NCBI RefSeq assembly: GCF_001677475.2
Contig: NZ_CP012498.1
DNA length: 64,000 bases
Reading direction: 5' to 3' (one strand)
Source of the DNA: Escherichia coli
Lineage (GTDB): Bacteria > Pseudomonadota > Gammaproteobacteria > Enterobacterales > Enterobacteriaceae
Position numbers: made by a program. Positions 45,001-51,000 of the stretch are shown here, piece after piece. Each line of letters opens with the position of its first letter. The stretch's first letter is position 1.

Positions 45001-48000
45001 CAGGCAGTCAGGGCATCATGGCTGGTCAAAGAGAACAGGGCACGAATTGATGACGTGGTGGATTTCCTGAAAAACGCCAGTGACAGCGAGCAGTATGCTG
45101 AGTCACCGACCATCCGCAGCCGTCTGGACGAAATGATTGTGCTGCTTGACCAGTACACTGCCAACGGCACTTACGGCCGGTATTTTAACTCCGATGAGCC
45201 GTCCCTGCGGGATGATGCCAGAATGGTGGTGCTGGAGCTGGGCGGACTGGAAGACCGTCCGTCCCTGCTGGTTGCGGTGATGTTCAGCCTTGTTATTTAC
45301 ATCGAGAACCGGATGTACCGCACGCCGCGTAACCTCAAGAAACTGAACGTTATTGATGAAGGCTGGCGTCTGCTGGACTTCAAAAATCACAAGGTCGGTG
45401 AGTTTATTGAGAAAGGTTACCGTACCGCCCGTCGTCATACCGGTGCCTATATCACCATCACACAGAACATCGTCGACTTTGACTCTGACAAGGCGTCCAG
45501 TGCTGCCCGTGCGGCATGGGGTAACTCCTCCTACAAAATTATCCTCAAACAGAGTGCGAAGGAGTTCGCGAAATACAACCAGCTGTATCCGGACCAGTTC
45601 CTGCCACTGCAGCGTGACATGATTGGCAAGTTTGGTGCGGCCAAAGACCAGTGGTTCAGTTCCTTCCTGCTGCAGGTGGAAAACCATTCCTCCTGGCACC
45701 GTCTGTTTGTGGACCCGTTAAGCCGTGCCATGTACAGCTCTGACGGCCCGGATTTTGAGTTTGTGCAGCAGAAGCGTCAGGAGGGCCTGAGTATTCATGA
45801 GGCGGTGTGGCAGCTGGCGTGGAAGAAGTCAGGGCCGGAGATGGCTTCGCTGGAGGCCTGGCTGGAAGAACATGAGAAATACAGGAGTGTTGCATGACCA
45901 CAACGCAAAAAACGACTGATGTTACAGCCCGTCAACGCTGCCACTGGTGGTGGATGGTGCCGGGATGCCTGGCAATGGTGTTACTGAACGCAGCCGTCAG
46001 TTACGCCATTGTCAGACTGAACACGCCGGTAACCGTCGCCTTCAACATGAAACAGACTGTGGATGCGTTTTTTGACAGCGCCAGCCAGAAAAAACTGTCA
46101 GAAGCGCAGTCGAAGGCGCTGGCTGACCGTTTTAACGCGGCACTGGAGGCCAGTCTGCAGACGTGGCAGCAGAAGCACCACGCTGTCATTCTGGTGTCGC
46201 CTGCCGTGGTACAGGGGGTACCGGATATCACCCGTGAAATCCAGCAGGATATTGCCCGGCGAATGAGGGCAGAACCATGAAATGCCGGGGGCTGATTGCC
46301 CTGCTGATATGGGGGCAGAGTGTGGCTGCAGCCGATCTTGGCACCTGGGGGGATTTGTGGCCGGTAAAGGAGCCGGACATGCTGACGGTGATCATGCAGC
46401 GCCTGACAGCTCTGGAGCAGTCCGGTGAGATGGGCCGGAAAATGGATGCGTTTAAGGAGCGGGTTATCCGCAACAGCCTGCGGCCCCCTGCCGTGCCCGG
46501 TATCGGTAGGACGGAGAAATACAGCAGCCGGCTGTTTGACCCGTCGGTCAGACTGGCTGCGGATATCCGGGATAACGAAGGTCGTATCTTTGCCCGCCAG
46601 GGGGAGGTGATGAACCCGCTGCAGTATGTGCCTTTCAACCAGACGCTGTATTTCATCAACGGTGATGATCCTGAGCAGATTGAATGGATGAACCGCCAGA
46701 CGCCTCCCACGCTGGAAAGCAAAATTATCCTGGTGCAGGGCAGTATCCCGGAGATGCAGAAAGCTCTGGACAGTCGTGTTTACTTTGACCAGAACGGTGT
46801 GATTTGTCAGCGCCTCGGCATCGATCAGGTTCCGGCACGGGTGAGCGCGGTCCCCGGCGATCGCTTCCTGAAGGTGGAATTTATTCCGGTCGGGGAGGGA
46901 GGGAAATGAAACGGTGTATGTGGTTGTGTGTGGTTTTGCTGCTGACTGGCCATGTTCCCGTAGCGTCAGCGGACGCTGCCTGTGAGGGGCGGTTTGTTAA
47001 CCCGATCACGGATATTTGCTGGAGCTGCATTTTCCCTCTCTCGTTGGGCAGCACAAAAGTGAGCCAGGGGAAGGTGCCGGATACCGCAAACCCGTCAATG
47101 CCGATCCAGTTCTGCCCGGCGCCTCCCCCTGTTTTTAAACGTATCGGGCTGGCTATTGGTTACTGGGAGCCGATGGCCCTGACGGATGTCACCCGCTCAC
47201 CGGGATGCATGGTTAATCTGGGGTTCAGTCTGCCGGAATTCGGGAAAACGGCACAGGGTACGGCTAAAAAAGAAGATAAACAGGTGAACGGGGCGTTCTA
47301 TCACGTTCACTGGTACAAATACCCGCTGACGTACTGGCTGAATATCATCACGTCGCTGGGGTGCCTGGAAGGCGGAGACCTGGATATTGCCTATCTGTCA
47401 GAAATTGACCCTACCTGGACGGACAGCAGCCTGACCACCATCCTCAACCCGGAGGCGGTCATCTTTGCAAATCCGATAGCACAGGGAGCCTGTGCGGCGG
47501 ATGCCATTGCCAGTGCCTTTAACAAGCCGCTGGATATTCTGTTCTGGTGTGCCGGTTCGCAGGGCAGTATGTATCCGTTTAATGGCTGGGTGAGCAATGA
47601 ATCCAGCCCGTTGCAGTCATCCCTGCTGGTCAGTGAGCGGATGGCATTTAAGCTCCACCGTCAGGGCATGATAATGAACACTATCGGCGTGGATGTGGCC
47701 GTCTGTTATGAATATCCGTCTCCCATACTTCCCAAAGCGCGCTGGCGTTATCAGATGGTAAATATGTACCCGGACAGCGGACAGTGCCATCCGTTCGGAC
47801 GCAGTGTGATGCGCTGGGAGACGGGAAAAAATCCGCCCAACACAAAGAAAAACTTCGGCTACCTGATGTGGCGTAAACGTAACTGTGTGTTCCTGTAAGT
47901 CATGTTAATCAATAAGAGGATCGATTATATGAAGGTGTGGGTAATAAGAAATAAACACGCAGATGACTTCAGAAAAATATGTCTTCTGTTTATCCGGTTA

Positions 48001-51000
48001 ACGAGCAATGTATTAAAGCTGTTTCCTTTTGCTATGGTGATGTGCTCTGTGGTGTGGTTTTATTTTTGCCCTGAATATATTCTCTCAGACATTGTTAATG
48101 ACTGGCATGATGCAGATACACTGGAAAAAATAGGGCTTGTCAGACTGTATCTGAAGACGTCTTTTATTCTTACAGTGGTGGGCGTTGTTATTTCATATCT
48201 TTCTTCAGATAAGTTTATACCCGTTAAGCGCAGGAAATGAGTCTGATGGTTATCATAAATATAACAGTGTGTGCATGTGTACAATATAAGTAAAGGTGCG
48301 TTATGGGATTTTTCTCATTTTTACGAAAGATAAGTAATAAAGAAAAAGGGGTTTTTATCAGTGAGGAGCATTGGTTCTCACTGCTGGAAAAGGTGAGTGC
48401 TTTTGATGAGGTCAGACAATGGGCTGAAAGTAATGGTGGGGCATATTATCCTCTGCTGGAGTGTCGTCGGCTTACAGACAGTGAAGATGTCAGGAAATCA
48501 GAGGATATACTGAACCGACTGGAGTTTATCGACAGAAGGTTTCGGGAATTCATCAGCATTATGTCTGAACATATTAATAATGATAAAACTAAATCCATGT
48601 GGGAGAGGAATTTGTCTGAATATCCACCGAAAAAAATATACCAGGTCCGGAGAGAGGGAGAACATCTGTCATTAAAAAATTACGGTGATGATATTACTCT
48701 GAACAGAGATACCGCCGTGGCTACGGTGCAGATTACTGTCAGCAGAAAATGCATTACTCAGGAAGAAATGGATGAATTATATGCATTGTCTGAGAGACTG
48801 AAAGAAAAGTGCGCCGGTAATTAAATTATATCACTGTGCCGGGAGATGATATGAGCCGGAAAATATTTGTACTTTTTGCCCTGACCACAGGACTGTTTAT
48901 TTCTGCCCATGCTTCGGAAAATGTGAATACACCCGAAAACCGCCAGTTCCTGAAGCAGCAGGAAACACTGAGTCAGCAGTTGCGTGAGAAGCCGGACACA
49001 CAACTGCAGGCATGGGCAGAACAGCAGGTCAGGGCGAATCCCCTTCAGCATGCCGATAACCAGTTTCTCGATGAACTGGTCCGTAAACAGCAGGCTGCTC
49101 AGAAAGACAAACCACAGCAGGGGGCCGTGTATTTTGTGTCGTTCTCCATTCCCGAAGAGGGACTGAAACGGATGCTGGGAGAAACCCGGCACTACGGCAT
49201 TCCGGCCACACTGCGGGGCATGGTGAACAATGACCTGAAGACTACCGCTGAAGCCGTGTTGTCTCTGGTAAAAGATGGCGCGACCGATGGTGTTCAGATC
49301 GACCCGACGTTGTTTTCACAGTACGGCATCCGCAGCGTGCCGGCCCTGGTGGTGTTCTGCAGCCAGGGGCACGACATCATCCGGGGAAATCTGCGCGTCA
49401 GGCAGGCGCTGGAAAAAGTGGCCGCCACGGGAGACTGCCGGCAGGTGGCTCAGGGACTGCTGGACGGCACCGGGGATAAGCCGCAATGAGTTTACCTGCC
49501 GGGTATTACCGGATTGACCCGGACATCCGTGCACTGGTGGCCGCGATGAACGTTCACGGATTCCGTACATATGCCTCCTGTCAGGGACATGGTTTCCCGG
49601 TCACAAAGCTGCTGCCTTATATTGCCTTTGCCTGTCCGGTAAAAATGGCTGCCCTTCTTGAGCAGCGACTGCGGCAGGATGCTGAATCAGCAATACCACG
49701 TCTGACATGGGGATGGTCGGTGAAGGGGGCTTTTAACAGTGACCTTCAGCTCTGTTTCCGGCTTCAGCCGGAAGGTCCTCATTGCTGGTATCACCGGTAC
49801 TGTCGTCGTTCACTGCGTGCAGACTTCAGGACGCTGATATTGTTACTGAAGTCGTTATCTGAGTAGTAATCCCGGTACGCCAGGAAGCTCCATACACCAA
49901 AATCAACACCGTTCTGAAGTTGAGATGACATCACTTCATTCTCCATTTGGTTCAGATTATGAAAGAAAAGATAAATACCTTTTTCAGGTCTCTGAATTTT
50001 AATGACTCCGGAAAACCGTGCAATATTTGTGCAATTGTTTTTTTTCTGAGCTTTTCTGTGTTTGCAGACAGCAACAGTGATTACCGGGCAGGTTCCGATT
50101 TTGCCCGTCAGATCCAGGGGCAGGGTATTGGCAGTATTCAGAATTTTAATCCGCAGGAGAGTATCCCGGGGTATAACGCGAACCCGGATGAGACGCAGTA
50201 TTACGGTGGGGTGACTGCCGGCGGGGATGGCGGTCTGAAAAATAACGGCACCACACAATGGGCAACCAGTGAAACCGGCAAAACCATCACAGAATCCTTC
50301 ATGAACAAGCCGAAAGACATTCTGTCACCGGATGCGCCGTTTATTCAGACCGGCAGGGATGTGGTGAACCGGGCTGACAGCATCGTGGGAAACACCGGAC
50401 AGCAGTGCAGTGCGCAACAGATAAACCGCAGTGAATTCACCAACTATACCTGTGAGCGGGATACGATGGTTGAGGAATATTGTTCCAGAACCGCCAGTAT
50501 CACAGGGGACTGGAAATACACGGATGAATATCGTGAGGTGACGATACCGCACTCACAGTTCCGGTTCAGTATGAACGGGCTGAAACTGGCGTTCAGTGTC
50601 ACGGCTCCGGTAACCGGTACAGTGGAAAGTGCATCATTGTCTGTATACGCCGCTTTTTTCTTCCTGAACTCTCGTTATACCTTCATGAATTCAACGTTCA
50701 ATGTTGGCCTGGCAAACGGGCAGTCGGGGACTTTCCCTCTGTCCGGGGCAACAGGTTTGCAGGTGACACAGGGGCAGGTACTGACCGGCAGTGGCTGTAC
50801 TGCTAACGGTAACTGCCTTTCTGGCGGGAACGGTGACCAACAGGTTTATGAGAAACTGGCCAGCGGCGCCTCCACCTTTACGCTGAAACTCAGGATGAAG
50901 GTCCGTGATAAAGAATGGGTTCCACGAGTGGAGTGGGTGGAGAGTTGTCCGTTTAATAAAGCGGATGGCGTGCTGAAAGGCACTGAGTGTTCAGAGCCGG

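What the first reader, a model, noticed from the sequence alone, without database searches (positions are those of the whole stretch)
47902..48824. AT-rich two-gene insert between traU and trbC within the transfer operon
In F the order is traU-trbC with no intervening genes (from memory). Here two same-strand ORFs (112-aa membrane protein; 173-aa soluble protein) at ~33% GC are inserted precisely between them and would be co-transcribed with the tra operon, so they are expressed during conjugation. Such cargo could encode exclusion, anti-defence or recipient-directed functions.
Basis: partly seen in the sequence, partly recalled or inferred. Interest (0 to 1): 0.6.

Follow-up and report, generated by a model that had tools for sequence, protein, structure and literature searches.

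The report
Unstudied accessory genes in F-type transfer operon
Two small genes between traU and trbC are real and missing from the classic F plasmid, but they are not a rare foreign insert: they belong to two uncharacterised families found at this same spot in R100, pSLT, pED208 and hundreds of other plasmids.

Summary
Two same-strand genes fill the traU–trbC gap, which is only 8 nt in F. GC is 38.4%, not 33%, against 54–57% in the flanks. The first gene most likely starts at 47929, giving 103 aa rather than 112.

It is not unusual cargo. The 103-aa two-helix membrane protein has homologues at the same position in R100, pSLT (PSLT093) and about 2,000 plasmids. The 173-aa soluble protein occurs in about 800 plasmids. 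Its N-terminal ~110 residues are a remote homologue (hhalign 98.8%, E 8e-17) of pED208 OrfX4, which also lies between traU and trbC.

Distant relatives are almost always inside F-type transfer operons, mostly next to traU. Two independent natural fusions join a two-helix membrane anchor to the soluble domain. Both genes are under purifying selection but evolve 5–10 times less constrained than traU. Truncated alleles are common. Low GC is shared by the named small auxiliary genes of this operon.

No known domain, defence family or structure matches, and AlphaFold models were poor.

Best reading (confidence about 0.4): a dispensable, donor-side, membrane-tethered accessory module of the F-type secretion machine. 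Exclusion, phage protection and anti-defence roles remain untested.

The parts
46906..47898 (+). traU, the upstream flank of the slot
   Evidence: translation. 70% identical to the TraU genes of distant loci. Annotated traU in near-identical plasmids. GC 54.4%.
47914..47919 (+). AAGAGG ribosome-binding site for the 103-aa start
   Evidence: Read. It lies 9 nt upstream of ATG 47929. The same aataagagga junction is present in R100.
47929..48240 (+).
   Evidence: Homologues in 2026 plasmids by tblastn. 46% identical to the R100 protein and 40% to PSLT093. dN/dS 0.28-0.57. No Pfam, NCBIfam, PADLOC or significant PHROG match.
48007..48069 (+). Predicted transmembrane helix 1 of ORF103 (residues ~27-47, includes the conserved LKLFPF)
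   Evidence: Hydropathy scan. Conserved columns in alignment A6.
48070..48135 (+). Acidic loop of ORF103 (residues ~48-69), predicted periplasmic and the best-conserved segment
   Evidence: Net charge about -5, against +4 at both ends, so the positive-inside rule places the loop outside (inference). Near-invariant I55, W59, D63, K67.
48136..48198 (+). Predicted transmembrane helix 2 of ORF103 (residues ~70-90)
   Evidence: Hydropathy scan.
48241..48302 (+). 62-nt spacer with an AAGGTG ribosome-binding site before ORF173
   Evidence: No Rfam match. The first ~35 nt are shared with the spacer in L024.
48303..48824 (+). ORF173: soluble protein, OrfX4-like domain plus a C-terminal extension
   Evidence: Homologues in 810 plasmids. 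dN/dS 0.26-0.74. No known domain. AF2 predicts an all-helical N-domain but pLDDT is only 52-54.
48336..48665 (+). OrfX4-like core domain (residues ~12-121)
   Evidence: hhalign of the IncF group against the pED208/Serratia/Enterobacter group: probability 98.8%, E 7.7e-17, query columns 12-121. BLASTP to pED208 OrfX4: E 4e-7.
48462..48467 (+). Codons for the invariant Cys54-Arg55 of the GGxY..ECR motif
   Evidence: Invariant in 19 sequences that are 16-90% identical.
48666..48821 (+). C-terminal extension (residues 122-173), found only in the E. coli/Klebsiella IncF versions
   Evidence: Absent from the 114-146-aa distant homologues. Present in the 150-aa variants of L006 and L008.
48851..49489 (+). 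trbC, the downstream flank of the slot
   Evidence: 639 nt, as annotated in relatives. GGGAGA ribosome-binding site before ATG 48851. GC 56.5% for 48851-49489.

Best explanation
The two genes form a dispensable, donor-side accessory module of the F-type type IV secretion (conjugation) machine. They are not foreign cargo.

ORF103 is a hairpin inner-membrane protein with both ends in the cytoplasm and a conserved acidic loop in the periplasm. ORF173 is a cytoplasmic helical protein whose N-terminal ~110 residues belong to the pED208 OrfX4 family. It probably works at the cytoplasmic face of the inner membrane, tethered by ORF103 or by its own hydrophobic-basic N-terminus. There it would modulate assembly or activity of the transfer apparatus made by the neighbouring genes.

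The slot is a recombination hotspot where such auxiliary cassettes are swapped, stacked, fused or lost. F itself has lost them.

Shown: gene reality, homology, positional conservation, fusions, selection regime and dispensability. Inferred: topology, the physical link between the two proteins, and any effect on the secretion machine.
For: 1. Positional conservation over large distances.
- ORF103 homologues lie between traU and trbC in R100, pSLT and an R100-like Shigella plasmid.
- OrfX4-like genes lie between traU and trbC in pED208 and related Salmonella/E. coli/Citrobacter plasmids, with an ATGA overlap onto trbC.
- The same placement is seen in metagenome contig L010. In L015 the gene follows traU, in Serratia-type L017 it lies between traW and traU, and in L009 between traF and traQ.

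2. Homology is solid: hhalign 98.8%, E 7.7e-17. The family is tiny, with 24 representatives among 1.84 billion proteins, and nearly all those whose context was examined are tied to F-type operons.

3. In pED208-like and Serratia operons the gene has the GC of its neighbours (0.569 vs 0.57-0.60; 0.602 vs 0.60-0.62). This indicates long residence.

4. Two independent fusions join a two-helix membrane anchor to the OrfX4-like domain. One is the 259-aa E. coli protein, whose N-terminal half aligns with the ORF103 family (31% to the window protein, closest to the R100 type; 96 index blocks). The other is P0129, with an unrelated anchor. The ORF103-type plus ORF173-type pairing recurs in a divergent form in L008 (114 aa + 150 aa).

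5. The same slot in L008 holds a genuine traP, a known non-essential pilus-stabilising gene.

6. Composition matches the named small auxiliary genes of this operon (trbE 0.40, trbA 0.39, trbD 0.43).

7. Purifying but relaxed selection: dN/dS 0.26-0.57 at distance, against 0.02-0.05 for traU.

8. Dispensability. F lacks both families entirely. Truncated alleles are common.
Against: - No experiment, domain match or reliable structure supports any molecular activity.
- The neighbours TraU, TrbC and TraW are periplasmic, whereas the OrfX4-like domain is predicted cytoplasmic. Adjacency therefore need not mean direct interaction.
- Fast evolution and allele shuffling also fit conflict-type functions such as exclusion or phage protection.
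- The E. coli versions are AT-rich and mosaic. Against the pHN7A8-type plasmid, dS is 0.76 for traU but 0.06 for ORF173. They therefore move independently of the core machine.
- Enterobacter versions sit in a different operon, next to an Mrr-like nuclease.
- Deleting the whole pED208 F-specific cluster, which includes orfX4, did not change pilin levels (PMC10939261). That rules out only a TraQ-like role.
Confidence: 0.4

Rival explanations
1. A conflict module expressed together with the pilus. It would either add a layer of exclusion or immunity against related plasmids, or protect the piliated donor from pilus-specific phages. The membrane protein would block entry and the cytoplasmic partner would assist.
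For: - dN/dS is 5-10 times higher than for traU, and many allele types are shuffled by recombination.
- Composition resembles the traS-position gene (0.377 GC).
- The genes are dispensable and often lost.
- The best-conserved part of ORF103 is its exposed periplasmic loop.
- Alternative slot partners include a small P-loop NTPase with weak similarity to anti-phage models.
- Enterobacter homologues sit beside an Mrr-like nuclease.
Against: - No PADLOC, NCBIfam or Pfam match for either protein, and no phage homologues.
- The window already has a traS-position gene and traT.
- The weak anti-phage hits are P-loop similarity only (20 bits against a cut-off of 790).
- The pED208-type gene is translationally coupled to trbC and compositionally ameliorated. 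That fits a housekeeping operon member better than an arms-race gene.
Confidence: 0.2
2. Anti-defence or recipient-directed cargo: proteins made during conjugation that act in or on the recipient.
For: - The genes are embedded in the transfer operon.
- F-type machines, including pED208's, can translocate plasmid proteins (abstract of PMC8406263, seen).
Against: - The transfer operon enters the recipient last, while known anti-defence genes cluster in the leading region (established knowledge).
- Neither protein matched any Pfam or NCBIfam family, which between them include the named anti-restriction and SOS-inhibition protein families.
- ORF103 is an integral membrane protein.
- The OrfX4-like domain occurs naturally fused to membrane anchors. 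That is hard to reconcile with export through the channel.
Confidence: 0.08
3. Largely functionless passengers: decaying remnants kept because they sit in a tolerated gap of a long operon. Any effect would be indirect, for example AT-rich DNA binding H-NS and damping downstream expression.
For: - Many frameshifted or truncated ORF173 alleles exist: 123 aa on 142 contigs and 103 aa on 105 contigs.
- Close alleles cannot reject neutrality (p 0.06-0.13).
- F works without the genes.
- The tract is AT-rich.
Against: - Long-range purifying selection is significant (p about 1e-6).
- A sequence motif is conserved down to 16-28% identity across genera.
- Position is conserved and the gene is translationally coupled to trbC in pED208-type operons.
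- Intact alleles are seen on more than 1000 contigs.
Confidence: 0.15

Closest known systems
pED208 OrfX4 (UniRef Q8KNK7, WP_032490365; 122 aa, uncharacterised)
   Same: - Homologous to ORF173 residues ~12-121 (hhalign 98.8%, E 7.7e-17; BLASTP E 4e-7).
- Same GGxY..ECR and LxxLxxID motifs.
- Same position between traU and trbC on the same strand.
- Function unknown. A TraQ-like pilin-stabilising role is disfavoured (PMC10939261).
   Different: - About 20-25% identity only.
- OrfX4 is a single domain and overlaps the trbC start. ORF173 has an extra 52-residue C-terminal part, a 26-nt gap before trbC, a membrane-protein partner upstream, and 40% GC in a 55% GC operon (OrfX4-type 57% in a 57-60% operon).
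R100 WP_000224416 and pSLT PSLT093 ('conjugative transfer protein', a name based on position only)
   Same: - Homologues of ORF103 (46% and 40% identity).
- Same length (101-103 aa) and same slot.
- Same 5' junction sequence, shown for R100.
- AT-rich in both: 0.35 in the R100-like plasmid L004 and 0.44 in the pSLT-like plasmid L005.
   Different: In R100 and pSLT the membrane protein stands alone. In the window it is followed by ORF173. None has been characterised.
Named non-essential auxiliary genes of the F tra operon (trbA, trbE, trbD, trbJ, trbF, traP, artA)
   Same: - Small and dispensable.
- Often membrane proteins.
- Interleaved with essential genes.
- AT-rich relative to the core genes.
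- traP itself occupies this slot in L008.
   Different: No detectable sequence similarity. A profile search of all six-frame ORFs of the F tra region gave nothing better than E=1.6 for ORF173 and E=2.7 for ORF103.
TraS entry-exclusion proteins
   Same: - Inner-membrane location.
- AT-rich.
- Fast-evolving and plasmid-specific alleles within the tra operon.
   Different: - TraS lies at a different locus, between traG and traT.
- The size differs (~160-170 aa) and no similarity was found.
- The window has its own traS-position gene at 59267-59770.

Membership tests
pED208 OrfX4 family (uncharacterised) | Significant sequence homology to OrfX4 | tested here: met
   hhalign probability 98.8%, E 7.7e-17 over 107 columns. 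BLASTP E 4e-7. The profile search recovers both groups.
pED208 OrfX4 family (uncharacterised) | Conserved GGxY(K)C.LECR and LxxLxxID motifs | tested here: met
   C54, R55 and L73 are invariant and I76 nearly so in 19 sequences.
pED208 OrfX4 family (uncharacterised) | Encoded inside an F-type transfer operon next to traU | tested here: met
   Window. pED208. L010, L011, L015, L017. Exceptions: L009, and L007/L014.
pED208 OrfX4 family (uncharacterised) | Single-domain protein of about 115-135 aa | tested here: not met
   ORF173 has a 52-residue C-terminal extension that distant members lack. It is a two-part variant.
R100 WP_000224416 / pSLT PSLT093 small membrane protein family | Sequence homology, ~100 aa, two hydrophobic helices, located between traU and trbC | tested here: met
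   46% identity (E 2e-32) and 40% identity (E 1e-21). Hydropathy. Positions.
TraS-type entry exclusion | Homology to TraS, or location between traG and traT | tested here: not met
   No NCBIfam or Pfam hit. No hit to any F tra-region ORF, including traS. A separate traS-position gene lies at 59267-59770.
TraS-type entry exclusion | Reduces entry of the cognate plasmid when expressed in recipients | not testable with these tools
   Needs a mating assay.
Known anti-phage defence systems (PADLOC-DB 2.0) | Match to a defence-protein model | tested here: not met
   No families at E<=1 for either protein.
Plasmid anti-defence / leading-region genes | Located in the early-transferred leading region and homologous to known anti-restriction or SOS-inhibition families | tested here: not met
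   Located in the distal tra operon. No Pfam or NCBIfam match.
Named F auxiliary Trb/Tra proteins (TrbA, TrbD, TrbE, TrbF, TrbG, TrbJ, TraP, TraQ, ArtA) | Sequence homology | tested here: not met
   hmmsearch --max of both family profiles against all six-frame ORFs of F 62000-99159. Best E=1.6 for ORF173 and E=2.7 for ORF103.
Mobile-element insertion (IS, transposon, integron cassette) | Terminal repeats, target duplication or a recombinase gene | tested here: not met
   Only short chance-level repeats in 47700-49000. No transposase ORF. Junctions are shared with R100 and L006. Accretion appears to occur by recombination that duplicates the traU 3' end.

The most novel reading that the evidence does not exclude
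The OrfX4-like domain, with its invariant Cys-Arg motif, would be an unrecognised cytoplasmic-face component or regulator of F-type conjugation machines, conserved from pED208 to Serratia and IncF plasmids. It would be recruited to the membrane by a hairpin protein whose conserved periplasmic loop senses or contacts the pilus-assembly proteins. Alternatively, the pair would be a new donor-protective or exclusion module that co-evolves with pilus-targeting threats.
Probability: 0.3. Interest if true: 0.55.

Novelty: new member of a known kind. Interest (0 to 1): 0.36.

Why it matters
[quoted passage not shown] Work on their transfer machine has centred on F, which happens to lack these genes.

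About 46% of the F-like plasmids matched by the traU–trbC query carry the membrane protein, and about 19% carry the OrfX4-like protein. These include the epidemic pHN7A8-type resistance plasmids that are about 94% identical across most of the insert (window 47987-48824).

The link between ORF173, pED208 OrfX4 and the Serratia/Enterobacter genes defines one family with a fixed operon position, together with natural membrane fusions. That gives concrete hypotheses that can be tested by deletion. If the module tunes transfer efficiency, pilus dynamics, phage sensitivity or exclusion, it would help explain why closely related plasmids differ in spread. If it does nothing measurable, the slot is still a clear example of how auxiliary cassettes are swapped inside an essential operon.

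Tried and rejected
Family searches:
- Pfam on both proteins and on the 19-sequence alignment gave nothing below E 0.04.
- NCBIfam gave only a 13-bit IglI hit against a cut-off of 100.
- PADLOC gave nothing.
- PHROGs gave nothing better than E 0.047.

Structure:
- PDB sequence profile searches gave nothing better than E 0.2.
- Two AlphaFold2 runs, with 6 and 19 sequences, gave pLDDT 52.2 and 53.8.
- Foldseek on the better model against PDB and AFDB50 found only the protein's own family, A0A2Z4I1Z5. Given the model quality, this says nothing about fold.

Other sequence features:
- Rfam and tRNA scans of the region were empty.
- The repeat scan gave no mobile-element signature.
- The promoter/terminator scan showed nothing on the + strand, and the minus-strand hits were at chance level.
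- tblastn against 50,697 phage records gave no match.
- There are no paralogues in the window and no homologues in the F tra region.

Literature:
- No paper mentions the protein accessions or 'between traU and trbC'.
- Anthony et al. 1999 (F vs R100-1) is not held.
- The 'Five shades of F' survey scored only the named F genes.

Ideas considered and dropped:
- A TraQ-like pilin chaperone role for the OrfX4 family, because deleting the pED208 cluster left pilin levels intact (PMC10939261).
- A catalytic Cys protease-type site, because there is no invariant His partner.
- An acidic secretion-chaperone signature, because pI ranges from 5.2 to 9.2 across the family.

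
Full report
**1. What is in the sequence**

Window 43270-52870 is a typical F-type transfer operon on the + strand. The gene order is traC, trbI, traW, traU (46906-47898), two extra ORFs, trbC (48851-49489), a further extra ORF (49486-49866), traN, trbE and traF.

The two ORFs of the finding are at 47902-48240 and 48303-48824, as stated. GC of 47902-48824 is 38.4% (36.6% and 40.0% for the two ORFs).

The first ORF most likely starts at the second ATG, 47929, giving 103 aa. An AAGAGG ribosome-binding site lies 9 nt upstream. Relatives are annotated at 101-103 aa.

The 103-aa protein has two hydrophobic helices (about residues 27-47 and 70-90). Its N and C ends are basic and the 22-residue connecting loop is acidic. 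By the positive-inside rule this predicts both ends in the cytoplasm and the loop in the periplasm; this is an inference. The 173-aa protein has no hydrophobic segment and pI 5.8.

No promoter-like or terminator-like site lies on the + strand between 46800 and 50000. There is no RNA family or tRNA match and no mobile-element repeats.

**2. Comparison with the reference plasmids**

- F has traU and trbC 8 nt apart with nothing between them. Profile searches of every six-frame ORF of the F tra region find no relative of either protein.
- R100 has a 101-aa gene (WP_000224416) between traU and trbC that is 46% identical to ORF103.
- pSLT has PSLT093, 40% identical, in the same place.
- The junction after traU (ctgtaa..aataagagga) is shared between R100 and the window.

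By tblastn, ORF103 relatives occur in 2026 plasmids of PLSDB and ORF173 relatives in 810. About 4364 plasmids match the flanking traU/trbC DNA. The whole two-gene block at 90% DNA identity or more is in about 480 plasmids. Many of these are E. coli and Klebsiella resistance plasmids that are about 94% identical across most of the insert (window 47987-48824), for example pHNHNC02. The block is also present in 252 of 5426 complete E. coli genomes. The window's exact proteins are on 54 and 37 public contigs, all labelled hypothetical.

**3. The slot is variable**

| Plasmid / locus | Content between traU and trbC |
|---|---|
| F | empty |
| R100, pSLT | membrane protein only |
| Window | membrane protein + ORF173 |
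| L002 | an additional short ORF |
| L006 | 153-aa minimal P-loop NTPase (AAA_14, E 9e-4) + 150-aa ORF173 relative (about 30% identity) |
| L008 | four genes: a DUF6812 protein, a genuine traP (NCBIfam 232 bits, cut-off 177), a 114-aa ORF103 relative (36%) and a 150-aa ORF173 relative |
| L024, L025 | free ORF103 copy, a 40-nt remnant of the traU 3' end, then a 259-aa fusion protein |

In the 259-aa protein the N-terminal half aligns with the ORF103 family, closest to the R100-type protein. It is fused in frame to ORF173 across a TTTTCTC microhomology.

The traU remnant shows how the slot grows: by recombination between plasmids that duplicates the end of traU. Synonymous divergence between the window and the pHN7A8-type plasmid is 0.76 for traU, 0.38 for ORF103, 0.06 for ORF173 and 0.23 for trbC. 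The region is therefore a recombination mosaic.

**4. ORF173 belongs to the pED208 OrfX4 family**

An exhaustive profile search of 1.84 billion representative proteins found only 24 relatives. The distant ones (16-28% identity) share a ~110-residue core with the motifs GGxY(K)C.LECR and LxxLxxID. Cys54, Arg55 and Leu73 are invariant.

Their genomic contexts are as follows.

| Protein / locus | Context |
|---|---|
| P0125 and relatives (228 plasmids of Salmonella, E. coli, Citrobacter, Klebsiella, Enterobacter, Serratia) | between traU and trbC, with an ATGA overlap onto trbC |
| pED208 protein, named OrfX4 by UniRef (Q8KNK7) | between traU and trbC |
| P0127 (L010) | traU – gene – trbC |
| P0132 (L015) | directly after traU |
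| Serratia/Aeromonas group (L017) | between traW and traU |
| P0129 (L009) | between traF and traQ; carries its own unrelated two-helix membrane anchor |
| Enterobacter versions (L007, L014) | end of a separate operon that begins with the lytic transglycosylase gene and includes an Mrr-like nuclease |

A profile-profile comparison of the IncF group with the pED208/Serratia/Enterobacter group gives probability 98.8% and E 7.7e-17 over residues 12-121 of ORF173.

Residues 122-173 are an extension found only in the E. coli/Klebsiella IncF versions.

In pED208-like and Serratia operons the gene has the same GC as its neighbours (0.569 vs 0.57-0.60; 0.602 vs 0.60-0.62). All the IncF slot genes are 34-44% GC.

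**5. Is low GC a sign of foreign cargo?**

Not on its own. In this operon the named small auxiliary or variable genes are equally AT-rich:

| Gene | GC |
|---|---|
| trbE | 0.40 |
| trbA | 0.39 |
| trbD | 0.43 |
| antisense ORF at the artA position | 0.345 |
| traS-position gene | 0.377 |
| ORF between traT and traD | 0.335 |
| traM, traJ | 0.35-0.375 |
| essential core genes | 0.51-0.58 |

The two ORFs fall into the compositional class of the operon's auxiliary genes.

**6. Selection**

| Gene | dN/dS |
|---|---|
| traU | 0.02-0.05 |
| trbC | 0.04-0.19 |
| ORF103 | 0.27-0.65 (0.28-0.57 against the window allele) |
| ORF173 | mostly 0.25-0.74 (two near-identical pairs about 1.0-1.15) |

The excess of synonymous change is highly significant at longer distances (p about 1e-6). 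It is not significant among near-identical ORF173 alleles (p 0.06-0.13).

Truncated ORF173 alleles are common: a 123-aa form on 142 contigs and a 103-aa form on 105 contigs. The genes are functional but weakly constrained and often lost.

**7. What could not be learned**

Neither protein matches Pfam, NCBIfam, PADLOC or, at any meaningful level, PHROGs. Neither matches any solved structure by sequence.

Two AlphaFold2 runs gave an all-helical N-domain but pLDDT of only 52-54. Foldseek returned only the protein's own family, which is uninformative given the model quality.

No held paper discusses these genes. The one exception is a remark that pED208 orfX4 is uncharacterised and that deleting the F-specific gene cluster left pilin levels intact, which argues against a TraQ-like role (PMC10939261).

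**8. Interpretation**

The most economical reading is that these are additional auxiliary genes of the F-type machine rather than unrelated cargo. The grounds are:

- positional conservation across very divergent operons;
- translational coupling to trbC in the pED208 type;
- compositional amelioration in those lineages;
- sharing of the slot with traP;
- a family distribution restricted almost entirely to F-type transfer regions.

The two independent membrane-anchor fusions, and the recurrent ORF103-type plus ORF173-type pairing, suggest that the OrfX4-like domain acts at the cytoplasmic face of the inner membrane. They also suggest that ORF103 is its tether. This is inferred, not shown.

Which step of conjugation it affects is unknown. 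I put about 0.4 on a donor-side accessory role and 0.2 on a conflict function (exclusion or pilus-phage protection), which would fit the fast evolution and allele shuffling. I put about 0.08 on recipient-directed or anti-defence action, which is disfavoured by operon position and by the membrane fusions. I put about 0.15 on near-functionless passengers, which is disfavoured by long-range purifying selection and the invariant motif.

**9. Verdict**

It is a common, annotated-as-hypothetical occupant of a known variable slot, with homologues at the same place in R100, pSLT and pED208.

The useful new points are the following. ORF173 and pED208 OrfX4 fall into one small family specific to F-type operons, with an invariant Cys-Arg motif. 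Natural fusions link that family to a membrane anchor. The slot grows by traU-end duplication. Low GC is a general trait of the operon's auxiliary genes.

Interest is moderate to low until a phenotype is found.

Noticed in passing
window 49486-49866 (+): A third gene absent from F: a 126-aa ORF that overlaps the trbC stop and lies between trbC and traN. GC is 53% and it has no family match. In relatives (L001, L021, L022) the homologous gene is followed by an HNH endonuclease gene that the window lacks.
   Followed up: partly
window 36000-62200 (tra operon): All small auxiliary or variable genes are AT-rich: trbE 0.40, trbA 0.39, trbD 0.43, the antisense ORF at 53199-53534 0.345, the traS-position ORF at 59267-59770 0.377, the ORF at 60605-61216 0.335, and traM/traJ 0.35-0.375. 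Essential core genes are 0.51-0.58. The operon is a compositional patchwork.
   Followed up: partly
window 59267-59770 (+) and 60605-61216 (+): A 167-aa ORF at the traS position and a 203-aa ORF between traT and traD have no NCBIfam match. R100 also has unnamed genes at both positions.
   Followed up: no
L024 2437-2476: A 40-nt copy of the 3' end of traU (encoding YLMWRKRNCVFL*) sits between a free ORF103 gene and the 259-aa fusion gene. This is a footprint of cassette stacking by recombination.
   Followed up: yes
L008 660-2899 (CP058082): In this plasmid the traU-trbC slot holds four genes, including a bona fide traP (NCBIfam 232 bits) and a 253-aa DUF6812 protein. I did not check whether a second traP sits at the canonical place.
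   Followed up: partly
L006 2022-2483 (NZ_CP070078): A 153-aa minimal P-loop NTPase (AAA_14, E 9e-4) replaces the membrane protein upstream of the 150-aa ORF173 relative. It has only weak P-loop-level similarity to anti-phage models.
   Followed up: partly
L014 3547-6645 and L007 1025-3273 (Enterobacter plasmids): The OrfX4-like gene lies at the end of a separate operon, which reads lytic transglycosylase - two small ORFs - Mrr-like restriction endonuclease - a 168-aa ORF - OrfX4-like gene in L014 (L007 is similar but shorter). This operon is convergent with traI.
   Followed up: no
L019 12699-14251 (R100) and L028 1725-2192 (pSLT PSLT087): R100 has four unnamed ORFs, and pSLT one, between traR and traC. 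This is another variable slot of F-like operons that is nearly empty in F.
   Followed up: no
window 46906-47898 vs other IncF plasmids: The window's traU is unusually divergent at synonymous sites from those of F, R100, pSLT-like and pHN7A8-type plasmids (dS 0.76-0.94). Its ORF173 is nearly identical to the pHN7A8 type (dS 0.06). This indicates a recombination breakpoint at or near the slot.
   Followed up: partly
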